Assembly (NCBI GenBank): GCA_963768175.1
Contig: CAVYGQ010000001.1
Span: forward strand, 702,305 to 766,304
DNA from: Candidatus Doudnabacteria bacterium
GTDB taxonomy: Bacteria > Patescibacteriota > Doudnabacteria > UBA920
Direction: 5' to 3'
DNA length: 64,000 bases
Shown here in pieces: positions 12,969 through 44,576 of the stretch. A program made the translations under genes and the position numbers. The stretch's first letter is position 1. Every line of letters starts with the position of its first letter. The notes below the pieces were generated by a model, which was not told the DNA's origin, ran no database searches, and worked only from the letters and a program-made list of their open reading frames with translations.

Positions 12969-13055
12969 GCCGCGGTGGCGAAATTGGCAGACGCATACGC
13001 TTCAGGTGCGTACGACCTCACGGTCATGAGGGTTCAACTCCCTCCCGCGGCACCA
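12969..13055 (+). tRNA. tRNA-Leu (anticodon CAG), class II with long variable arm, CCA encoded
   Basis: GCCGCGG acceptor. D arm GCG-AAATTGGCAGA-CGC. Anticodon stem TACGC/GCGTA with loop TTCAGGT. Long variable arm. T arm GAGGG-TTCAACT-CCCTC. 3' CCGCGGC-A-CCA. Confidence 0.85.
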
Positions 13056-37366: not shown

Positions 37367-37843
37367 TTACTCTATGCCTTGTTCTTTTAGGTCGCTTAAA
37401 ATCTGCTTGGTTGCCAGCAGCCAATTGGGATTGCAGGGCTTAACATATACTCCACACATTTGCTCCAGTGTCCAATCGCTGTATTTTTTGTCCAGCAGAC
37501 GGTTAAAATCCACCACCCAAGCGCTGTAGCTGGCATAACTGCGCCAAGAAGGGGCGCCAGGTTTTATCCCAATATTACTGCAGTTATTGTCCGCACAATT
37601 TTTGCCCATGGTGCTTTCGGCAAAAGCAATGGCTAATATCAGCTTCCAATGTTCCTGTTCGGCAATGGTCTCCGAGGCCTGGACCAAAGGTGAATGCATG
37701 TCGGTCAAAAATTTTTGCAGCTGGTTTTTCCGGCTGTTGATTATGTCGGGCTGAGATGCGCTTTGAAAATAACTCTGTAAATATTCAATCGGCGTATTAA
37801 ATAAAACATCGTTACTGACGTTTCCGCTGTTTTGTTCCTGCAA
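37367..37843 (-). CDS. Glucosaminidase/muramidase-domain protein (FlgJ-like). Possibly the C-terminal part of a frameshifted gene.
   Basis: AIAFAESTMG resembles the glucosaminidase-domain ESGWG motif. Overlaps the 37812-38255 ORF (different frame), which supplies a TM anchor. Confidence 0.4.
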   Translation of the reverse strand: MQEQNSGNVSNDVLFNTPIEYLQSYFQSASQPDIINSRKNQLQKFLTDMHSPLVQASETIAEQEHWKLILAIAFAESTMGKNCADNNCSNIGIKPGAPSWRSYASYSAWVVDFNRLLDKKYSDWTLEQMCGVYVKPCNPNWLLATKQILSDLKEQGIE

Positions 37844-38255
37844 ATCGGCGCCGGCTATCGGGGAACCCGAAGGGGCCGGACTGATCGCCGCTTGACTGGT
37901 CGGTAAAAGCTCCTAAAACCTGGGGCTGATTGTCAGCCACACTACTTCTGGTATAGAGCACCGACCACATGCCGAAAACAAAAGCAAGAATCAAGCCAAA
38001 CACCGCGGCCGCTATCGGAATTTTTTTTCCGCCATGGATTCTCCGGAGAAACAAAAATGGCGCGGCCTGTTTAGCCTTAGCCTTACCGGGAACCACAAAA
38101 AAAGGGCTTAAACCGATTTTAGCCGAAGTTTTTTTGAAGGGACGCCTAACTATGCTATCCACTCTTAGCGACCTTGACCTATAGGCCTTAGATTGCACGC
38201 GGATGCCGGCCTTTTTTGATTTTTTTATTCCGTCTACATTCCTGATATTTTTCAC
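37812..38255 (-). CDS. Hypothetical membrane-anchored N-terminal segment (may belong to the same gene as 37367-37843)
   Basis: 147 aa with one TM helix; 32-nt overlap with the downstream ORF. Confidence 0.3.
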   Translation of the reverse strand: MKNIRNVDGIKKSKKAGIRVQSKAYRSRSLRVDSIVRRPFKKTSAKIGLSPFFVVPGKAKAKQAAPFLFLRRIHGGKKIPIAAAVFGLILAFVFGMWSVLYTRSSVADNQPQVLGAFTDQSSGDQSGPFGFPDSRRRFAGTKQRKRQ

Positions 38256-38504
38256 TTAATTATTATAGCATTTCCTTAACAATAAAAAAACGCCGGACTG
38301 TCCGACGATTTTTTGGCTGCGCCATGAATCCAAAGCATTGTTGAGTGATTTATTGGCAGACCATCTCGGAATAGATGCCTGCCTGCCACAGGCAGGGAAA
38401 ACTTATCTGGCTTTGGTAAAGGAGATTTATCTTAGTCTCACCCTTATTCCATTCAACTAATAGCTTTTCCACTATCTGTAACTTCAAAAAATGCTATAAA
38501 ATTT

Positions 38505-39428
38505 TTACGATTTTTGCAAGGCTTCTAAATCCTTTACCGAGCTTGCCATTCGCTGAGCGAGGGGTTCAATCTTAACAATTAAGTACTTTATTAGATTGAA
38601 CATTTTTTGCAACTCATCTTTGGTCTCAATAAAAGCACTGTAATAAATATACATTTGTTGTCCGCTGAATTCAATAGAAAATTCTTTGTAATCATCTTTG
38701 GTTTTCCCCATAAAATCCGGGGTGAATATTTCCAAAGCCTCAATTTCAAATTCCTTTCTGGTGTAGAGTGTAAAATACTTATTATAATCGCCTTCTAGCT
38801 TAAGTATTTCTGAATCTGGGAAGTTTGGCCGCAAGTTGCTAAAAAATCTAATTCCCGCTACCAATAAAATCGGAGGCAGTGGGTTCGGACAAGGGACTTG
38901 GAAAATGGTATTATTATGCGTTTCGCTGGTTTTACCTCCGCCAGTTACATAGCTATAATTGAATAGAGCAAATTTATTGCCCTGGTATTCGCCTGTAATA
39001 AAATCCTGAACGGAGCGGCTGTGGCCAATATTAAAAACTGCACCGCTTAGCCCGTCCAGGCTAGAAATTTTTTGATAACCGTATCCGTTGGCGGCCGCAA
39101 ACTGTTGCATAAATTCATGATGGACCTTGCTGTGAACATAAACATATAAGCCAAGAAATATAAAAACAGGGGCAATAAAACCAAATGCTCTAGGGTCGTT
39201 GTTGTCAACAGGCGGAACCAAGACAAGCCAAAAGTAAATTAGGGTTTCCCAGGCTATTGTGGCCACAATTCCAGCCCATAATATTTTTTTTCGCTTTAAA
39301 AAAATTTCCTTAACGCTTTTGTTTACATCATCAATGCTTTCATCAAGCACCAAGCCCTGCTGGGCGTCTGTAGCCATACCGTTGTCTGGTGTCCCTAATG
39401 AAGGTTCTATGTTATTTGAATTTTCCAT
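38505..39428 (-). CDS. Hypothetical membrane protein
   Basis: 307 aa, N-terminal TM pair plus soluble domain. Confidence 0.5.
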   Translation of the reverse strand: MENSNNIEPSLGTPDNGMATDAQQGLVLDESIDDVNKSVKEIFLKRKKILWAGIVATIAWETLIYFWLVLVPPVDNNDPRAFGFIAPVFIFLGLYVYVHSKVHHEFMQQFAAANGYGYQKISSLDGLSGAVFNIGHSRSVQDFITGEYQGNKFALFNYSYVTGGGKTSETHNNTIFQVPCPNPLPPILLVAGIRFFSNLRPNFPDSEILKLEGDYNKYFTLYTRKEFEIEALEIFTPDFMGKTKDDYKEFSIEFSGQQMYIYYSAFIETKDELQKMFNLIKYLIVKIEPLAQRMASSVKDLEALQKS

Positions 39429-39485
39429 ATTTAAAAATATAATTTTTTGATAGCTTGGGAAGCTAATATTTTAAACTTTACAATA

Positions 39486-39866
39486 TTAAACAGACTGGGC
39501 TGGCGGCGTTGGTATTGGCACTGCTGTAAGCTCCTTTTTTGCTTTATGAAGATAATAAATTATAACCCCGCTTACCCCCATATAGAGCACCATCCAGACA
39601 TAGACTAGTTGCGTGAATAACGAAGTAATTATCGTATACAGCAAACCGAACCAGATGGTGTAATATACGAATTTATACGAAGTTTTTACAAGCGTATCTA
39701 ATTTAAAAGCGAAGTAAACGCACACTACGGCTAAAATTAAATTAACTACGAAAAGATACCTTAACGAACCCTTGTAATAAGATTGGCCAAGCACATCAAA
39801 GATTGTATCTGCATTTAGCAAAAACAATCCCCCCAGCCAGCCTTTTATAGTTGTTATTGATTTCAT
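39486..39866 (-). CDS. Hypothetical small membrane protein (4 TM)
   Basis: 126-aa hydrophobic ORF. Confidence 0.45.
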   Translation of the reverse strand: MKSITTIKGWLGGLFLLNADTIFDVLGQSYYKGSLRYLFVVNLILAVVCVYFAFKLDTLVKTSYKFVYYTIWFGLLYTIITSLFTQLVYVWMVLYMGVSGVIIYYLHKAKKELTAVPIPTPPAQSV

Positions 39867-39997
39867 TTGGTTTCTTGAGTGGTTTAATTATTTGCCCTAA
39901 TTATACACCTTTTTTGCTCATAAATAAAGGGGTAAAGTTTTCTTTCGCCGATAGGTCGTATTTTTGAAAGCTCAAAACCGCCCGTGAATAGGGCGGT

Positions 39998-40246
39998 TTA
40001 TAATTTTAAACTTTTAATCAAATTTTCTTTTCTTATGCGCGACCATTTTTTAACCTGGATTTCCCTGTGCCTGGCTTCGGTTAAAGTTAAGTAGGCTTCC
40101 ATATAAACCATCCTGCCGCCACCATGAATCTTTGTGTATCTGGCACCTCGGCTAGTATTATGCCGTTCCTCGCGTTGAGGCGGATGATTTGTGCTGCCTA
40201 CGTATAAAGCCCCGTCATTGCAAAGGAAAAGATAAAAATAGAACAT
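39998..40246 (-). CDS. GIY-YIG nuclease family protein (YhbQ/UPF0213-like), copy 1
   Basis: 82 aa. MFYFYLFLCNDGALYVGSTNHPPQREERHN...R.YTKIHGGG: GIY-YIG core (Y-x-G, R, E). Confidence 0.7.
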   Translation of the reverse strand: MFYFYLFLCNDGALYVGSTNHPPQREERHNTSRGARYTKIHGGGRMVYMEAYLTLTEARHREIQVKKWSRIRKENLIKSLKL

Positions 40247-40391
40247 GAGTATTTGCCTCTCAACTCGCTACGCTCGCTCGAGGCACTCTCCTCATTTTGA
40301 TGGTTAACTTGGTCAGAGGTTCAAACGTAGTGAGAACCGGAGACCACGAGCGAATTTTAAATTTATTTAAAATGAGTCGAGTGGTAGACCA
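40150..40391. repeat. Duplicated module copy 1 (5' part of GIY-YIG gene plus ~145-bp leader), near-identical to 44131-44371
   Basis: ~240 bp at ~97% identity to copy 2. Lower identity continues through the gene 3' half (39998-40150). Confidence 0.8.
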
Positions 40392-40486
40392 TCTCGAGAC
40401 AGGTGGAAAACTTATCTGGCTTTGGTAAGAGAAATTTATAATTTATTGGCAAATGGATGCTAGGCATTTTTTTGTTTTTTGAATCT

Positions 40487-41392
40487 TTATTTAGATTTTT
40501 GATAAGCCTGGACTATGTAGCTAGTGGTAGAGGTAAGTTTTTCTTGAGTGTAATCTTGAGAATTTTTGTGCCCGAGGATTTGTAATTTTGAGAAAAAAAA
40601 TTCATTTTGTAGCCGCATTTGCACATATTGTGAGGCAATGGAATCTATATTATCAGGCTGGTTTAAGCTAAATAATTGTTCCGGATCCCCGTTTTTCAAA
40701 ACTTTTATAGTTTGCTCGTCATGCGCTTCGGCATTGGCGGGTGTTAGGTAATGGGAAAAGTCCGTACTTTGAACCACTAACGAATTTTTATTTAAAACCC
40801 TTTCTAAAACCCCTACAATTTGCTCCAGCTCGGCTTTGGGCGTGGATTCCTTAAACGTAACGGCGATAATTTTGGCATTGGGAAAATAGTATTTTATAAA
40901 CGGAAGTTCGGCGCCCAACCCGTGTTCTCGGTAAAAAAAATCCTGGATGCTGACAAATGGCAGATTAAGTAGTTTTTGGACCGCCTGGTTGTCGCTGTTC
41001 AGCGTGCCAAAAACTGTAGAGAAACTACTTTGGGAAACAGAAATATCGGTCTGTCCCAAATTAAAATGGTCTGGGCTCATTAAAAGTATTTGACTTAGGC
41101 TGCTTGAAGCCGCAAACTTAAAAGCGCCAGCAATAAGGTCAATTGCCAATAAATGGTGCGGTACGGTAATGCCGGTCACTTTTTCTGTTGTGGGAGTAAC
41201 GGTGCTAAAGTTGATTGGGGTTAAAAACGTAGATTTGTCATCAAACTGCGGCGGCACGGTCATGGTCTGAAGAGGGCTTAACTCATTTATCTCTTGGCCT
41301 AGTGGCTTATTTTTCTCCCGCAGCCAAAACAAACCCGCCAGACCTGCAAGTAAAACCAAAAATATAATCAGTCCTAATTTAAATCTCATCAT
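40487..41392 (-). CDS. Memo1/AmmeMemoRadiSam system protein B family protein, membrane anchored
   Basis: ...GITVPHHLLAIDLIAG... and ...LLMSPDH..., His-rich Memo-like motifs. N-terminal TM. Confidence 0.5.
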   Translation of the reverse strand: MMRFKLGLIIFLVLLAGLAGLFWLREKNKPLGQEINELSPLQTMTVPPQFDDKSTFLTPINFSTVTPTTEKVTGITVPHHLLAIDLIAGAFKFAASSSLSQILLMSPDHFNLGQTDISVSQSSFSTVFGTLNSDNQAVQKLLNLPFVSIQDFFYREHGLGAELPFIKYYFPNAKIIAVTFKESTPKAELEQIVGVLERVLNKNSLVVQSTDFSHYLTPANAEAHDEQTIKVLKNGDPEQLFSLNQPDNIDSIASQYVQMRLQNEFFFSKLQILGHKNSQDYTQEKLTSTTSYIVQAYQKSK

Positions 41393-43845
41393 TTAGCTTG
41401 GAGGGGATTGTACCAAAAATTCTTTGCCGGCAGCTTATCCGTTTGGTCGTAAACCCACCCCTTCCAGTCATTATCGGTCAGCCGTTGCCCACCCAGCGAA
41501 TTGGTAAATTCGTACTGGTTATATACCAAGCCTGTTACCACTCTCGGCGTATTTTCATTATTAACAATCGCCAGCATCAAATAGGGTTGACCGTCGGCTT
41601 CGTAAAGAATTTGGTTCCTAACCGCGTCAGTGGCAATGTCGGCAATCAAAGCCACTTTACCTGTGTCCTGATCGGCCTGGGTGGCGCTGTCAAACGGCTG
41701 GACCATAAACGACAGCTGAGTGGTCCTTAACTTTTCGTAATCATCCTCGCTAATGGCTTTGCCCTGCATTTCCTGTTGGGCCATGGATGCGTAAAAATTG
41801 GTAATATCCTGAAAATTCTGCAGGCGGGCGGACACGTCGCTGTTGCTGAATAAATTATTTTGGCTAAAGACCTGTTTGGTCTGGCTAATAAGCTGACCAA
41901 AGCGGTTCCAAAAATCCAGATTCGGCTCCACAAAACCCTTAACCACCGGCGGCAAAGGCGGAGGTTCTTCACCGCCGCCGCCCAGTTCGGCGTAGCTCTG
42001 TTTGGCGTACAGCAGGGTGTCGTGTTTAAGTTCAGTGTAAGAGCCTAAAAAGGTCTGAATTTGTTTGTCCAAGAACGGAACCGCCTGCATATAGGCAGGA
42101 TAACTGGAATCGTAAGGGTGCGTTAAAGAGCCGAGCACATAAAGCCAAGCGCTGCCCATGGAAGCGAACCATTCGGATTGGGTAACCTTGCCGATGTCGG
42201 ACTGCTTTTGTCCAAGTTTGGTGAAAAAGCCTTGGACATCGCTGTCGCTAAAGCCCGCGTCTTTTTGCAGGAACTGCCCGGCGTATTTTTGCGCCTGCGC
42301 GTCGCCCAGCGCGGCCGGCACAAACAAAGCCGATGGGGTGGAAGGCAACTTAACATCAGTTTTTTCCTGGCCAGCGGTTAAATCGTTCAAAATCCAGGCG
42401 TCAAAGCTAAACCGTTGGCCAAAAATCCTAAAGGCCAAGGAGCTGCGCAATAAGTCGCTTTTGGTTTGAGAAGAAATATTATTATCCACGACCACGTCAG
42501 ACAAAATTTTTGGCAGCCGCACTTGGTTTAAGTTGTCCGCCAGTTTTTGGATGCCGGCTTGGGAAACCAAATCAGCGTCGCTGGGCTGGGCCGTGCCTAA
42601 AATATTAGTTTCAAAATCCCGCCATTCCTGGTAAGTTAAGTCGTCGCTTTGGCCAGCGTAAAAGGCCGTCACGGTCATAATTTTCTGCCAGGGATCAACC
42701 GGGGTCACGCCGGACTTGCTTTTAATCTGGAATTGTTTGGCCAATAAACTGGCGTCGGTTATGCCTACGTCTTGTTGCAAAAAATAGCTACTCCGGCCTA
42801 GGTACACCATAGTGCGGAAGTAGGCGCGCAAGGCGGAATTCTTTGTGTAGTGGCTGCGCGGGGTGAACTGGGTGTAATCGGTTTTCAGGGTGTCGGAATA
42901 TTGGCCGAACAAGGGCGACACGCCGACATCGCTGGCCTTGTAAATAGCCTGCAGTTCGATTTGAATGGCGCTAATAAGCTCCGGGGTTAAACCGGCCGTA
43001 TATTTTGCCAAAATTGTTTTGGCATTATCATAGCTATCAATAGTCTGGTCTTGCTGGTCATAGGCATTTTCCTGGTCCGGGGTGTCAAACGAGTCGGGCT
43101 TAGGGGAGTTTTTATTTTCAAACAAAACCCGGGCCACAGTAATCTGGGCGAGCAAATTTTGATAGCGCTGCTGGATGTAGCCGGCATTATTCTGCTCTGC
43201 CGCGAGCAGATTGCCAGAAAGGCTAGTTAAAAAATCACCCAGGGACTGCGCTAATTCCTTTTGCTCCAATTGCTCCAAAGTCATGTCAAAAAATTTGTGG
43301 TAAGTATGAAGGACAATATCCGGGGTGACCAGCTTGGTGTTTTCCGGCGCGCGATAGTACTTGTCGGAAGCCCCACCAATAGAGTCAAAATCGCTGAGCA
43401 TCTCGTCAAAATTATAGCCGTAGCCGGAAGCAAAGCCGGTATCGGCAGCGTCAACCAGCAAAAAATGATTGTCTTTCAAAAATTTTTGCTGGGCCGGCGA
43501 AAGGTTGAGGCCGTATTTTTTAGCAACAGCAACAAAGTTAGGGATGACTTTTAAAGCGTCGTCCACCGGGTACTGGGCAACTGTGGCAGAAGCTGACTCA
43601 GTGGTGTTGGTAGCCTGCTGGCTCGCTGGTGGTTGCTTTTGCTGTAGGGCAACGGGCCGGACCGGAACAAACTTAAAAACCAAAGCCACCCCGACTATCA
43701 AAACCAAAGCAGCCGCTGACGCAATACTATATATAGCGACCTTGCTTAATCGGCGCGGCGGCGGGTTCTGCGGCGGCATACTCGGGTAATCATTTTGCTG
43801 CGGCTGCTGCGAAGCGGGATTGAAATTTTGATTATTTGCTTCCAT
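41389..43845 (-). CDS. Large membrane-anchored extracytoplasmic protein, DUF3160-like
   Basis: 818 aa, Gln/Pro-rich N-terminus, one TM, large soluble domain. 4-nt overlap with the downstream Memo-like gene (operon). Confidence 0.45.
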   Translation of the reverse strand: MEANNQNFNPASQQPQQNDYPSMPPQNPPPRRLSKVAIYSIASAAALVLIVGVALVFKFVPVRPVALQQKQPPASQQATNTTESASATVAQYPVDDALKVIPNFVAVAKKYGLNLSPAQQKFLKDNHFLLVDAADTGFASGYGYNFDEMLSDFDSIGGASDKYYRAPENTKLVTPDIVLHTYHKFFDMTLEQLEQKELAQSLGDFLTSLSGNLLAAEQNNAGYIQQRYQNLLAQITVARVLFENKNSPKPDSFDTPDQENAYDQQDQTIDSYDNAKTILAKYTAGLTPELISAIQIELQAIYKASDVGVSPLFGQYSDTLKTDYTQFTPRSHYTKNSALRAYFRTMVYLGRSSYFLQQDVGITDASLLAKQFQIKSKSGVTPVDPWQKIMTVTAFYAGQSDDLTYQEWRDFETNILGTAQPSDADLVSQAGIQKLADNLNQVRLPKILSDVVVDNNISSQTKSDLLRSSLAFRIFGQRFSFDAWILNDLTAGQEKTDVKLPSTPSALFVPAALGDAQAQKYAGQFLQKDAGFSDSDVQGFFTKLGQKQSDIGKVTQSEWFASMGSAWLYVLGSLTHPYDSSYPAYMQAVPFLDKQIQTFLGSYTELKHDTLLYAKQSYAELGGGGEEPPPLPPVVKGFVEPNLDFWNRFGQLISQTKQVFSQNNLFSNSDVSARLQNFQDITNFYASMAQQEMQGKAISEDDYEKLRTTQLSFMVQPFDSATQADQDTGKVALIADIATDAVRNQILYEADGQPYLMLAIVNNENTPRVVTGLVYNQYEFTNSLGGQRLTDNDWKGWVYDQTDKLPAKNFWYNPLQAK

Positions 43846-43981
43846 AAAATTATATATTTCTTAATCTCCAATATTGTGAAAGGAGGTTAATTAGTCAGTT
43901 ACATTATACATCTATTTTAGCTATAAATAAAACAAAAAAGTTCTCCATTTGTCGCAATGGAAAATTCTTTAGAATCAATGT

Positions 43982-44230
43982 TTATGGTTTCAGTCCTTTT
44001 GTTAGACGCTCCTTTTTCATCCGTGACCACTTTTTGACTTGGGTTTCTCTTTGCATTGCTTCTGATCTGGTGGCGTAAGTTTCAGTATATACAATTTTTC
44101 CACCGCTGTGTATTTTAGTATATCTTGCACCACGGGCCGTATTATGCCGTTCCTCGCGTTGAGGCGGATGATTTGTGCTGCCTGCGTATAAAGCCCCGTC
44201 ATTGCAAAGGAAAAGATAAAAATAGAACAT
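43982..44230 (-). CDS. GIY-YIG nuclease family protein (YhbQ-like), copy 2
   Basis: 82 aa. N-terminal half identical to copy 1, C-terminal half diverged. Confidence 0.7.
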   Translation of the reverse strand: MFYFYLFLCNDGALYAGSTNHPPQREERHNTARGARYTKIHSGGKIVYTETYATRSEAMQRETQVKKWSRMKKERLTKGLKP

Positions 44231-44371
44231 GAGTATTTGCCTCTCGGCTCGCTACGCTCGCTCGAGGCACTCTCCTCATTTTGATGGTTAACTTGGTCAG
44301 AGGTTCAAACGTAGTGAGAACCGGAGACCACGAGCGAATTTTAAATTTATTTAAAATAAGTCGAGTGGTAG
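44131..44371. repeat. Duplicated module copy 2, ending exactly at the 3' CCA of tRNA-Glu
   Basis: The repeat ends ...gagtggta. The next base begins the tRNA (gcgcca...), so the repeat abuts the tRNA 3' end. Confidence 0.8.
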
Positions 44372-44440
44372 CGCCACGGAGAATCGGACTCCGATTCACA
44401 GCTTGAAAAGCTGTTGTCCTAACCATTAGACGATGGCGCC
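44366..44440 (-). tRNA. tRNA-Glu (anticodon TTC), CCA encoded
   Basis: GGCGCCA acceptor. D arm TCGTCTAATGGTTAGGACA. Anticodon stem ACAGC/GCTGT with loop TTTTCAA. T arm CGGAG-TCCGATT-CTCCG. TGGCGCT-A-CCA 3' end. Confidence 0.8.
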
Positions 44441-44576
44441 AAAATTTATTTTTTATCTTTTATCTTTAATTTTTTACTTACTTTTGGCAGTTTAGCATAA
44501 ATCCCCTATTTTTTCAAGAGCTTTTTCGGTCAAGTTTGTTGCCAACCAGCGCCAATTCTGGTAAATTTAACTCATT

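What the first reader, a model, noticed from the sequence alone, without database searches (positions are those of the whole stretch)
38330..44445. Duplicated GIY-YIG module abutting the 3' end of tRNA-Glu; apparent serial integration of two cargo blocks
- A ~400-bp module, made of an 82-aa YhbQ-like GIY-YIG nuclease gene plus a ~145-bp conserved leader, occurs twice in direct orientation (39998-40391 and 43982-44371).
- The core 240 bp is ~97% identical. The 3' gene halves have diverged.
- Copy 2 ends exactly where tRNA-Glu(TTC) begins its 3' ...CTACCA end. After copy 1, and again at 38338-38415, there are degenerate look-alikes of the tRNA 3' end (GGTCTACCA / GGTCTGCCA plus shared aaacttatctggctttggtaa).
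- Between the boundaries lie two cargo blocks of membrane or secreted proteins: 38505-39866, and 40487-43845 (Memo-like plus a DUF3160-like 818-aa protein).
- This looks like tRNA-targeted integrative elements stacked in tandem, with a GIY-YIG nuclease rather than a tyrosine/serine integrase as the only enzyme at the tRNA-proximal end. A GIY-YIG-driven tRNA-site mobilisation would be unusual.
Basis: partly seen in the sequence, partly recalled or inferred. Interest (0 to 1): 0.7.

Follow-up and report, generated by a model that had tools for sequence, protein, structure and literature searches.

The report
tRNA-trailing structured RNA with mini GIY-YIG nuclease
The duplicated module is real and belongs to a widespread element that I found in no RNA-family library or searchable paper: a folded RNA that starts exactly at the CCA end of tRNA or tmRNA genes, often followed by an 82-residue GIY-YIG nuclease gene, and that looks like a new tRNA-end-specific selfish element.

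Summary
Two 82-aa GIY-YIG genes (39998-40246 and 43982-44230, minus strand) each follow a ~135-nt leader. A 233-bp core is 98.3% identical; the rest of the ORF is 65% identical. Copy 2 starts at the CCA of tRNA-Glu.

- **tRNA linkage.** In 52 of 81 homologous loci from CPR and about 10 other phyla, the gene lies no more than 320 nt downstream of a tRNA or tmRNA. The leader begins at the CCA.
- **Folded RNA.** The leader forms P1-P4. On a model-fitted alignment 95.5% of cells are paired and 27 of 31 pairs show compensatory changes. G·U outnumbers A·C by 105 to 15. It matches no Rfam 15 family.
- **Solo leaders.** A protein-independent DNA-pattern scan of metagenomes found many leaders behind tRNAs with no nuclease gene. 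A viral scan found none behind a tRNA.
- **Polymorphism.** One relative has an empty tRNA-Glu site.
- **Look-alikes.** The "tRNA look-alikes" are copies of a separate conserved 58-77-nt motif, not tRNA remnants. No integrase is present.
- **Cargo.** DUF3160-Memo is a resident CPR gene pair, so the cargo reading is doubtful.

Best reading: a tRNA-3'-end-specific selfish element with autonomous and solo forms. The mechanism is unproven.

The parts
44489..44517 (-). Sigma-70-like promoter match upstream of tRNA-Glu (TTGAAA-17-TAAACT with TG); candidate start of the tRNA-leader-GIY transcript
   Evidence: Consensus scan only
44366..44440 (-). tRNA-Glu(UUC) with encoded CCA; its last nucleotides form the 5' strand of leader helix P1
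   Evidence: ARAGORN; Rfam RF00005 61 bits
44239..44373 (-). Leader/trailer RNA copy 2. P1 5' strand 44359-44367; P2 hairpin 44339-44356; conserved J2/3 TTCGCTCGTGG 44328-44338; P3 44294-44330; P1 3' strand 44268-44282; P4 'GA hairpin' 44239-44268, whose 3' strand holds the GAGAGG Shine-Dalgarno-like sequence
   Evidence: Covariance model R1, 111.5 bits, E = 1e-20; sub-feature coordinates; structure
43982..44230 (-). GIY-YIG nuclease gene 2 (82 aa, UPF0213/YhbQ type)
   Evidence: PF01541 E = 8e-16; identical to P0001 on a 949-kb contig
43903..43964 (-). Terminator-like hairpin (43929-43964) and conserved TATAAT-containing promoter-like stretch (43903-43931) at the 3' edge of module 2
   Evidence: Direct repeat D2, 72% identical to 39900-39942; read from sequence
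41389..43845 (-). DUF3160 protein (818 aa); probably a resident CPR gene rather than cargo
   Evidence: PF11369 E = 7e-123; 78-80% identical orthologues paired with Memo in L333 and L334 without a GIY module
40487..41392 (-). Memo-like protein (301 aa), in an operon with DUF3160
   Evidence: PF01875 E = 4e-21; the pair is conserved in L333, L334 and L335
40382..40439 (-). Site motif B (ATAAAT..TTACCAAAGCCAGATAAGTTTTCC..CTCGAGATGGTCTACCA). It abuts leader copy 1 and takes the place of a tRNA 3' end
   Evidence: the same junction occurs in L331
40255..40389 (-). Leader RNA copy 1 (P1 5' strand 40375-40383; P2 40355-40372; J2/3 40344-40354; P3 40310-40346; P1 3' strand 40284-40298; P4 40255-40284)
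   Evidence: R1 111.1 bits; coordinates
39998..40246 (-). GIY-YIG nuclease gene 1 (82 aa); 77% aa identity to gene 2
   Evidence: PF01541 E = 1e-13; alignment
39900..39999 (-). Intrinsic terminator hairpin (39974-39999) and promoter-like stretch (39900-39928) at the 3' edge of module 1
38505..39866 (-). Two ORFs without Pfam matches: a 126-aa protein read by eye as a membrane protein (39486-39866) and a 307-aa protein (38505-39428). This is the block between site B/module 1 and site A
   Evidence: p307 homologues are at most 49% identical and sit in other contexts
38354..38430 (-). Site motif A (same motif with a 19-nt hairpin insertion; ends in CTGCCA), unoccupied and followed by a terminator at 38284-38307
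40155..40387 (.). 233-bp core shared at 98.3% with 44139-44371: leader plus the first ~92 nt of the ORF. A recent gene-conversion or recombination tract

Best explanation
**What it is.** The two modules are copies of a widespread genetic element that I did not find in Rfam 15 or in the searchable literature. The element occupies the position immediately 3' of tRNA and tmRNA genes.

**Constant part.** The constant part is a 75-170-nt structured RNA.
- Its first helix, P1, pairs the CA of the tRNA's CCA and the next ~10 nt with a distal strand.
- It also has a variable hairpin P2, an almost invariant single-stranded CTCGCTCRUGG, a hairpin P3, and a 3' hairpin P4 with tandem G·A pairs.

**Optional part.** The optional part is a minimal 82-aa UPF0213/YhbQ-type GIY-YIG nuclease gene that starts a few to tens of nt after P4.

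**Proposed mechanism (inferred).**
- The element is a selfish, tRNA-3'-end-specific element with autonomous (nuclease-encoding) and non-autonomous (solo RNA) forms.
- It is transcribed from the tRNA promoter.
- The RNA fold lets the tRNA 3' end be released and, through P4, masks the nuclease's ribosome-binding site.
- The nuclease promotes copying of the element into unoccupied tRNA ends, or gene conversion between copies.

**In this window.** Copy 2 sits at tRNA-Glu. Copy 1 sits behind a conserved 58-nt 'site motif' that ends in CTACCA, like tRNA-Glu. The two copies recently exchanged a 233-bp tract covering the leader and the 5' part of the ORF.
For: **Shown**
- **tRNA linkage.** A same-strand tRNA or tmRNA ends no more than 320 nt upstream of the gene in 52 of 81 homologous loci (15 tmRNA, 11 Glu, 9 Ala, 6 Ser, and others). 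The conserved leader anchor starts 2 nt before the tRNA end.
- **Structure.** MAFFT plus RNAalifold gives 19 of 31 pairs with compensatory changes. On 54 model-aligned leaders, 95.5% of cells are paired and 27 of 31 pairs have double changes, against 29-45% paired when partners are slid.
- **Strand.** G·U/U·G = 105 against A·C/C·A = 15, so the fold is on the sense strand.
- **Junction covariation.** The junction triplet CAC, CAT or CCC covaries with both P1b and the RUGG of J2/3 in all but one of the ~50 aligned leaders that carry the J2/3 segment (read by eye).
- **Leader without a protein query.** A DNA pattern that contains no tRNA sequence hit 123 sites in metagenome contigs. 37 start exactly 2 nt after a called tRNA or tmRNA, and 56 follow CCA[CT]. 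Only about 15 have a GIY gene downstream. The same pattern in viral contigs gave 0 of 120 behind a tRNA.
- **Solo leaders.** They occur in L003, L042, L050 and L087.
- **Within-genome spread.** Two leaders behind tRNA-Arg and tRNA-Lys on one contig are about 90% identical, with homology starting at the CCA. One Doudnabacteria MAG carries three copies.
- **Occupied versus empty.** L333 has tRNA-Glu followed directly by a terminator. L332, L002 and the window are occupied.
- **Recombination tract.** Identity drops abruptly from 98.3% to 65%.
- **Protein.** Family-wide invariant Tyr, Tyr, Arg and Glu are kept.
- **No other enzyme.** No integrase lies nearby.

**Inferred**
- Cotranscription with the tRNA.
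- Masking of the ribosome-binding site by P4.
- The nuclease as the mobilising enzyme.
Against: - An 82-aa single-domain GIY-YIG protein has no DNA-binding domain that could give site specificity.
- No target-site duplication or defined right end was found for the compact element.
- In the one ~100-locus subset scored with the model (L091-L190), about two thirds of complete leaders lack the nuclease. Leaders can also sit between tRNAs of one operon (L203). Both facts also fit a host RNA-processing role.
- The tRNA-Glu copy looks vertically inherited over long times. GIY is 65% identical in L002, against 59% for the neighbouring HtrA, and both window ORFs are intact.
- L331 and L332 have a terminator and a -10 box between leader and ORF, so cotranscription is not universal.
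- No known route copies DNA into a site with homology on one side only.
Confidence: 0.5

Rival explanations
1. **Host RNA-processing module.** The leader is a cis-acting 3'-trailer signal for tRNA and tmRNA precursors. The small GIY-YIG protein is a dedicated factor, possibly an RNase, that recognises the fold and cuts at the CCA, autoregulating through its own leader. Copies spread by ordinary duplication and are kept by selection, not by mobility.
For: - P1 pairs with the CCA end and J2/3 carries a second RUGG that covaries with it.
- Solo leaders follow many tRNAs, including successive tRNAs of one cluster (L172, L203).
- The structure is on the RNA strand.
- Long-term vertical retention at tRNA-Glu, with intact ORFs.
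Against: - Only a minority of tRNAs carry it: 1 of 2 in this window.
- Which tRNA is occupied differs between related genomes.
- Copies within a genome are more alike than expected for old, independently maintained signals.
- GIY-YIG enzymes are known as DNases (general knowledge).
- A close relative does without it at tRNA-Glu.
Confidence: 0.2
2. **The first reader's model.** Two cargo-carrying integrative elements are stacked at tRNA-Glu. Each is bounded on the left by leader-GIY and on the right by the site motif. They integrate through a circular intermediate whose site-motif-to-leader junction (..CTACCA|CTCGACTC) mimics the tRNA-Glu-to-leader junction.
For: - The site motif lies downstream of leader-GIY on the same strand in the window (twice) and in L018, L036 and L023, with different genes in between.
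- The site-to-leader junction recurs in L331.
- The site motif is absent after the Memo or p307 homologues of relatives.
- The 233-bp near-identical tract is what a Campbell-type crossover would duplicate.
Against: - DUF3160-Memo is a conserved CPR pair at 78-80% identity without GIY or site motif in L333 and L334, and in L333 it also lies next to a tRNA-Glu.
- p307 homologues are in housekeeping contexts.
- The site motif's co-occurrence with GIY could come from ascertainment and gene co-orientation (about 3 of 35 CPR loci).
- Only 6 nt are shared with the tRNA.
- There is no recombinase.
- Most family members carry no cargo.
Confidence: 0.15
3. **Plain local duplication.** The segment was duplicated in tandem, followed by divergence and gene conversion. 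There is no relation to tRNA genes and no special RNA.
For: - Two copies lie 4 kb apart in direct orientation with a conversion-like tract.
Against: - The tRNA/tmRNA linkage and leader structure hold across phyla.
- The unrelated genes between the copies differ.
Confidence: 0.03

Closest known systems
Free-standing GIY-YIG homing endonucleases of T-even phages (Seg family; SegB lies in the T4 tRNA gene cluster, PMC2330249)
   Same: A GIY-YIG nuclease gene is inserted between genes next to tRNA genes. It spreads with flanking markers by cleavage and repair, and no integrase is involved.
   Different: Seg proteins are about 200+ aa with a DNA-binding domain (general knowledge). Here the protein is the bare 82-aa catalytic domain. 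The insertion point is the exact CCA end of many different tRNAs and tmRNA. A conserved structured RNA always accompanies it and often occurs alone. It was not found behind tRNAs in viral contigs.
Genomic islands and prophages integrated at tRNA/tmRNA 3' ends by tyrosine or serine integrases
   Same: The same class of target (3' end of tRNA and tmRNA genes). Tandem accretion at one tRNA is known for such islands.
   Different: No integrase is present. There is no att repeat made of the tRNA 3' part; only 6 nt are shared. The element is 0.1-0.5 kb, not kilobases.
IS200/IS605 elements (IS608 type) and their PATE/MITE derivatives
   Same: Insertion immediately 3' of a short specific sequence. Subterminal hairpins are each preceded by a ~4-nt 'guide' complementary to the target. 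Here RUGG lies before P3 and before P4 and CCAY is the target. Autonomous and ORF-less copies both exist.
   Different: There is no HUH (Y1) transposase, and a hydrolytic GIY-YIG nuclease cannot make covalent intermediates (general knowledge). Long P1 pairing, G·U enrichment and compensatory changes argue for selection on RNA. No right-end cleavage site was seen.
RNA processing elements placed 5' of selfish ORFs in non-coding transcripts: the GIR1 lariat-capping ribozyme before homing-endonuclease mRNAs in twin-ribozyme introns (PMC2219692), and HDV-like ribozymes at the 5' end of R2 (general knowledge)
   Same: A structured RNA sits directly upstream of a selfish nuclease ORF that rides on a stable-RNA transcription unit, plausibly to free and control its mRNA.
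   Different: No similarity to these ribozymes or to any Rfam family. Catalysis is untested. The host transcript is a tRNA or tmRNA.
T-box leader (UGGN pairing with the tRNA NCCA end)
   Same: A conserved UGG-containing segment pairs with the CCA end of a tRNA.
   Different: Pairing is in cis with the unprocessed precursor and includes the nucleotide after CCA (RUGG:CCAY). The element lies downstream of the tRNA gene. There is no specifier or antiterminator architecture.
UPF0213 / YhbQ proteins (PDB 1zg2, 1ywl); Slx1 nuclease domain
   Same: The same single-domain GIY-YIG fold family.
   Different: I know of no described link of YhbQ-type genes to tRNA ends or to a leader RNA (memory and the literature searches). 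No NCBIfam model names this subfamily.

Membership tests
GIY-YIG nuclease superfamily (PF01541) | Significant match to the catalytic-domain profile over its whole length | tested here: met
   E = 1e-13 and 8e-16, profile positions 1-78 of 78 and 1-76 of 78
GIY-YIG nuclease superfamily (PF01541) | Conserved GIY and YIG tyrosines, Arg and metal-binding Glu | tested here: met
   Y5, Y15, G17, R25 and E50 are invariant in 30 family members. Assignment to catalytic roles rests on general knowledge of the fold.
GIY-YIG nuclease superfamily (PF01541) | Nuclease activity | not testable with these tools
   Needs biochemistry
UPF0213 / YhbQ-type single-domain proteins | 80-110 aa, catalytic domain only, sequence similarity to BH0048 and EF2693 | tested here: met
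   Profile hits 1zg2 and 1ywl at E = 6e-19 and 1e-18; 82 aa
Free-standing homing endonuclease genes | Separate DNA-binding domain that gives a long recognition site | tested here: not met
   The 82-aa protein is filled by the catalytic domain, residues 1-75
Free-standing homing endonuclease genes | Presence/absence polymorphism of the gene at an otherwise conserved site | tested here: inconclusive
   Solo leader versus leader+ORF within the L003 duplication. Empty tRNA-Glu in L333 against occupied sites in the window, L002 and L332. However, the flanks are not orthologous.
Free-standing homing endonuclease genes | Cleavage of the unoccupied allele | not testable with these tools
   Needs an in vitro assay
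Integrase-driven tRNA-site integrative elements | Tyrosine or serine recombinase encoded in the element | tested here: not met
   No recombinase domain in ORFs between 27994 and 48703
Integrase-driven tRNA-site integrative elements | Direct repeat of the tRNA 3' segment (att core, usually at least 15 nt) at the distal boundary | tested here: not met
   Only CTACCA or CTGCCA is shared. The repeats are a distinct motif also found in other genomes.
IS200/IS605-type ssDNA transposons | HUH (Y1) transposase | tested here: not met
   The only enzyme is GIY-YIG
IS200/IS605-type ssDNA transposons | Hairpins preceded by short guides complementary to the target | tested here: inconclusive
   RUGG before P3 and before P4 covaries with CCAY, but this is equally explained by RNA pairing
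MITE / REP-like DNA repeats | Terminal inverted repeats selected at the DNA level, with target-site duplication | tested here: not met
   P1 arms vary by compensatory changes with a G·U:A·C ratio of 105:15. No duplication was seen at junctions.
Any Rfam 15 family, including small self-cleaving ribozymes | Covariance-model match | tested here: not met
   Only tRNA and tmRNA reach gathering score in the window and 38 loci. Nothing relevant at E up to 10 on the isolated leaders.
Self-cleaving ribozyme (new class) | Site-specific self-scission of the transcript | not testable with these tools
   Needs in vitro transcription of tRNA-leader RNA

The most novel reading that the evidence does not exclude
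The leader is not just a passenger fold. It is the specificity component of an RNA-directed system. Its two RUGG segments (J2/3 and the P1 3' strand), which track whatever sequence ends the upstream tRNA (CCAC, CCAT, CCCC, or GUGCC in L085), would recognise NCCA ends. One version: the RNA is a new ribozyme that cuts or joins at the CCA. Another version: it guides the domain-only GIY-YIG nuclease to tRNA-gene ends. Either would be a new kind of RNA-guided or ribozyme-assisted mobile element that targets the universal CCA end.
Probability: 0.12. Interest if true: 0.95.

Novelty: new variant of a known kind. Interest (0 to 1): 0.8.

Why it matters
If it holds, this adds three things.
- **A new RNA class.** A widespread structured RNA (CPR bacteria, Planctomycetota, Verrucomicrobiota, Omnitrophota, Gammaproteobacteria, soil metagenomes) sits in a place nobody annotates: the first 100 nt after tRNA and tmRNA genes.
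- **A context for an orphan family.** It gives the first biological context for the ubiquitous but function-less UPF0213/YhbQ mini-nucleases.
- **A new targeting problem.** A selfish element appears to target the universal CCA end without an integrase. How a bare 82-aa nuclease domain achieves this is then a directly testable question, with an RNA-assisted mechanism as one possibility.

On the practical side, covariance model R1 could annotate hundreds of unexplained tRNA trailers. The family occurs in MAGs assigned to cultured genera (Zhongshania, Luteolibacter), so experiments may be feasible if isolates carry it.

Tried and rejected
- **Pseudoknot between J2/3 (CTCGCTC) and the P4 5' strand (GAGCGAG).** Rejected. 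The CTCACTC variants L026, L040, L060 and L078 keep GAGCGA, which gives A·C mismatches.
- **R of RUGG paired inside P3.** Rejected. There is no covariation with the base after GACCA.
- **Leader as HDV-like, hammerhead or another known ribozyme or Rfam family.** No hits even at E up to 10. The order of helices does not fit HDV or hammerhead (by eye).
- **Sites A/B as degenerate tRNAs.** ARAGORN finds nothing at 100% or 85% thresholds and only inconsistent calls at 70%. Rfam finds nothing.
- **Sites A/B as a folded RNA.** RNAalifold on 6 copies gives 0 compensatory pairs.
- **Sites A/B as truncated leaders.** Only a CTCG..ATGGTCTA resemblance to J2/3-P3. R1 does not hit them. Left open but weak.
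- **Site motif as the native 3' flank of the Memo or p307 genes.** Rejected. It is absent after their homologues.
- **Phage origin.** The viral scan gave only chance matches.
- **Integrase nearby.** None.
- **Exact-sequence look-up of the two window proteins.** Nothing on record, although P0001 and P0005 exist.
- **Literature.** Ten searches found nothing on a GIY-YIG/tRNA-trailer element. They covered GIY-YIG with tRNA, tmRNA, structured RNA, ribozyme, CPR, YhbQ and UPF0213, plus the consensus sequence strings. One paper lists GIY-YIG genes among those horizontally transferred from Patescibacteria (PMC12455944).


Full report
**1. What is in the window**

On the minus strand the order is as follows.
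- A promoter-like site (44517-44489).
- tRNA-Glu(UUC) (44440-44366).
- A 135-nt leader, then GIY-YIG gene 2 (44230-43982).
- A hairpin and a TATAAT-containing stretch.
- DUF3160 (43845-41389) and a Memo-like gene (41392-40487).
- A 58-nt 'site B' (40439-40382).
- A second leader, then GIY-YIG gene 1 (40246-39998), then a terminator and a second TATAAT stretch.
- Two ORFs of 126 and 307 aa with no Pfam match.
- A 77-nt 'site A' (38430-38354), then a terminator (38307-38284).
- p147, p158, HtrA, a CsoR-like repressor and a thioredoxin-reductase-like gene.

Both small ORFs are full-length GIY-YIG domains of the UPF0213/YhbQ type. The two modules are 98.3% identical over 233 bp (40155-40387 and 44139-44371). 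This tract runs from CTACCAC through the leader and the first ~92 nt of the ORF. Identity then drops abruptly to 64.8%.

**2. The tRNA link is general**

Thirty-two homologues of the protein were found. The first contexts fetched already showed the gene directly behind tRNA-Ile, tRNA-Glu and tRNA-Ala, with a conserved leader that begins at the CCA.

A scan of one genome per species with the protein alignment kept 80 loci. They come from Patescibacteria (Doudna-, Sacchari-, Peri-, Kerfeld-, Woese-, Roizman- and Levybacteria, among others). They also come from Planctomycetota, Verrucomicrobiota, Kiritimatiellae, Omnitrophota, Lentisphaerae, KSB1, Ignavibacteria, Acidobacteriota, Margulisiibacteriota and Gammaproteobacteria.

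In 52 of 81 loci a same-strand tRNA or tmRNA ends no more than 320 nt upstream of the gene. The breakdown is 15 tmRNA, 11 Glu, 9 Ala, 6 Ser, 3 Ile, 2 Lys, 2 Gln, and one each of Trp, Asp, Asn and His. By eye, many of the remaining loci are cut by contig ends or carry tmRNA-like 3' ends that were not called. The leader anchor CCAYTCGAYTC starts 2 nt before the tRNA end in nearly every case. For comparison, this 64-kb window has two tRNAs, so a random position has well under 1% chance of such a neighbour.

**3. The leader is a structured RNA**

An unguided MAFFT alignment of 17 leaders folded into the following elements.
- **P1:** the CA of CCA plus YTCGACTCG, paired with CGAGTCGARUG.
- **P2:** a hairpin stacked on P1.
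- **J2/3:** an almost invariant single strand, CTCGCTCR.
- **P3:** UGGUC...GACCA, often with an inner hairpin.
- **J3/1:** a variable linker.
- **P4:** a 3' hairpin, CCYGAGCG...CGAGUCGARGG, with tandem G·A pairs.

19 of 31 pairs show compensatory changes.

A covariance model (R1) finds the leader upstream of the gene in most of these loci, roughly 70 of 81 by my count of the hit list. On 54 model-aligned, non-identical leaders, 95.5% of cells are paired and 27 of 31 pairs carry double changes. Shuffles give 80% paired, and partners slid by 1-3 columns give 29-45%. That alignment is fitted to the model, but one search is independent of it.

G·U/U·G cells outnumber A·C/C·A by 105 to 15. The fold is therefore selected on the transcribed strand, not as a DNA palindrome.

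No Rfam 15 family matches. This holds at gathering score in the window and 38 loci, and at E up to 10 on isolated leaders.

One unexplained feature stands out. The triplet at the junction covaries with its P1 partner (GUG, AUG, GGG) and also with the RUGG at the end of J2/3. CAC goes with GUGG, CAT with AUGG and CCC with GGGG, in all but one of the ~50 aligned leaders that carry the J2/3 segment (read by eye). In L085 the junction GUGCC is matched by GGCAC in both places.

**4. The leader often stands alone**
- A 3.5-kb duplication in L003 carries the same tRNA-Ala twice. One copy has leader+ORF. The other has a complete leader followed by a terminator. Homology ends 8 nt after P4.
- Extra R1 hits in L042, L050 and L087 are leaders directly behind tRNA-Ser, tRNA-Trp and tmRNA with no GIY ORF following on the same strand.
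- A pattern made only of leader sequence, TCGACTCN{4,34}YTCGCTCRTGG, was scanned over metagenome contigs. 37 start exactly 2 nt after a called tRNA or tmRNA (Arg, Ala, Lys, Ser, Leu, Asn, Gln, Ile, Val, Met, Glu, Asp, Tyr, Gly). 56 follow CCA[CT], where about 1 is expected by chance. Only about 15 have a GIY gene within 450 nt.
- R1 confirms about 30 complete leaders among the first 100 of these loci, about two thirds of them solo.
- The same pattern in viral contigs gave 120 matches, none behind a tRNA and none with GIY. This is a useful negative control and argues against a phage origin.

**5. Signs of spread and of stability**

Signs of spread:
- On one contig (L172), leaders behind tRNA-Arg and tRNA-Lys are about 90% identical. 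Homology starts at the CCA and ends at P4.
- One Doudnabacteria MAG has three leader+GIY copies at different sites.
- Tandem or partial leaders occur in L070 and L079, and tandem GIY genes in L019 and L064.
- A fairly close relative (L333; DUF3160 78% and Memo 80% identical) has tRNA-Glu(UUC) followed directly by a terminator. That is an empty site.

Signs of stability:
- L002 keeps tRNA-Glu, leader, GIY ... p158-like, HtrA in synteny with the window. GIY is 65% identical and HtrA 59%. The tRNA-Glu copy is therefore old and under purifying selection.

**6. Sites A and B**

They are not tRNA remnants. Homologous copies exist in L018, L036, L023 and L331.
- In L018, L036 and L023 the motif lies downstream of leader-GIY on the same strand. 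Zero to two unrelated ORFs lie in between, and in L018 and L036 a terminator follows.
- In L331, whose GIY is 80% identical to gene 2, an unrelated membrane-protein ORF is followed by the site motif. Then, at ...GGTCTACCAC|TCGACTC..., come a leader and a GIY gene. This is the same junction as site B to copy 1.
- The motif has no covariation-supported fold.
- It does not follow the Memo or p307 homologues of relatives.

Two readings remain. Or it may be an independent repeat whose CTACCA end serves as a surrogate tRNA end for insertion.

**7. The 'cargo'**

DUF3160-Memo is a conserved pair in many CPR genomes (233 homologues at E no higher than 1e-30). In the closest relatives it lies in other contexts with no GIY nearby. 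In L333 it is 1.3 kb from an oppositely oriented, unoccupied tRNA-Glu, and a p147 homologue lies 7 kb downstream. It is better seen as resident.

The p307 gene has only 33 detectable homologues, at most 49% identical, and they sit in housekeeping neighbourhoods. What is variable is the interval between Memo and p147 and the interval after tRNA-Glu. GIY modules and site motifs sit at the joints.

**8. How it most likely works**

Shown: a conserved RNA fold that begins at the CCA, an optional nuclease gene, multi-copy dispersal to many tRNA ends, occupied and empty sites, and a recent 233-bp exchange between the two window copies.

Inferred:
- The element rides on the tRNA promoter. The only promoter-like site upstream of module 2 precedes the tRNA.
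- P1 presents the CCA junction for cleavage, so that the tRNA stays functional.
- P4, whose 3' strand holds GAGAGG or GAGGGG 7-10 nt before the ATG in many copies, limits translation.
- The nuclease makes breaks at tRNA ends or between copies that are repaired from an occupied copy. The abrupt 98% to 65% boundary is what such conversion, or a Campbell-type crossover, would leave.

In L331 and L332 a terminator and a -10 box separate leader and ORF. The leader can therefore also be a discrete tRNA trailer.

I put about 0.5 on this selfish-element reading, 0.2 on a host tRNA-processing module, 0.15 on the cargo-carrying stacked-element model, and about 0.12 on an RNA-guided or ribozyme mechanism.

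**9. Novelty**

The protein family is known but has no assigned function. The RNA is in no Rfam family. Ten full-text searches found no description of the association. Papers outside the held library cannot be excluded.

The closest known systems each miss a defining feature.
- Seg-type free-standing homing endonucleases have a DNA-binding domain and no RNA element.
- Integrase islands at tRNA genes have a recombinase and att repeats.
- IS200/IS605 elements have an HUH transposase.
- Ribozyme-led homing-endonuclease mRNAs belong to known ribozyme folds.

I rate it a new variant of a known kind (nuclease-bearing selfish element), with a substantial chance of being something more distinct.

**10. 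Source organism**

The window probably comes from a Patescibacteria genome close to Doudnabacteria. Its proteins match a 949-kb contig, and the nearest named DUF3160 homologue is from Doudnabacteria.

Noticed in passing
L333:5159-6728: In the relative with the empty tRNA-Glu site, a 511-aa large serine recombinase gene (Resolvase plus Recombinase domains) ends inside or next to the 3' end of the oppositely oriented tRNA-Glu. A type I restriction subunit lies upstream. This may be a separate integrative element at the same tRNA.
   Followed up: no
L003:1-5700: A 3.5-kb tandem duplication (SPOUT methyltransferase, Wzy_C, a 118-aa ORF, tRNA-Arg, tRNA-Ala) on a metagenome scaffold. It could be real or an assembly artefact. 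It supplied the solo-leader versus leader+ORF comparison.
   Followed up: partly
L331:990-1030 and L332:785-825: In the closest relatives of GIY gene 2, an intrinsic terminator and a TATAAT box lie between P4 and the ATG. The nuclease gene there seems to have its own promoter and a very short 5' UTR, unlike the window copies.
   Followed up: partly
L061, L082, L084, L059, L023 (about 230 nt upstream of the GIY start): The P4-type 'GA hairpin' (YCCYGAG...CGARGGR) occurs two or more times in tandem upstream of GIY genes in Omnitrophota, Planctomycetota and Doudnabacteria loci. Sometimes P1-P3 are absent and a plain long hairpin follows the CCA instead (also L017-L019 and L036).
   Followed up: partly
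L087:2501-3273: Luteolibacter MAG: tmRNA plus a solo leader on one strand converge on a GIY-YIG gene on the other strand. This arrangement is unlike all the others.
   Followed up: no
window 44228-44281 (-): Weak cmscan match of the P4 region to the archaeal C/D-box sRNA sR16 (16.8 bits against a gathering score of 70). It is probably chance, but it fits the tandem G·A (k-turn-like) look of P4.
   Followed up: no
window 39900-39942 and 43903-43945: A ~43-nt stretch ending in GTGTATAAT or GATGTATAAT is conserved (72%) downstream of both GIY genes, and L331 has a similar one (GGAAAACTTTTTTATTTTATATAAT). The module seems to carry an outward-facing promoter for whatever lies downstream.
   Followed up: partly
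window 37812-38255 and 37367-37843: p147 and p158 (no Pfam match) overlap by 32 nt. p158 has homologues next to HtrA in L002, and p147 has a homologue in L333. They mark the conserved right flank of the variable interval.
   Followed up: partly
window 12969-13055: The other tRNA of the window (tRNA-Leu CAG, CCA encoded) has no leader. It is followed by AT-rich sequence and a gene start.
   Followed up: yes
L203:2133-2650: Soil metagenome contig with a tRNA cluster in which tRNA-Tyr and tRNA-Gly are each followed by a complete leader before the next tRNA. Leaders can therefore act as inter-tRNA spacers inside one operon.
   Followed up: partly
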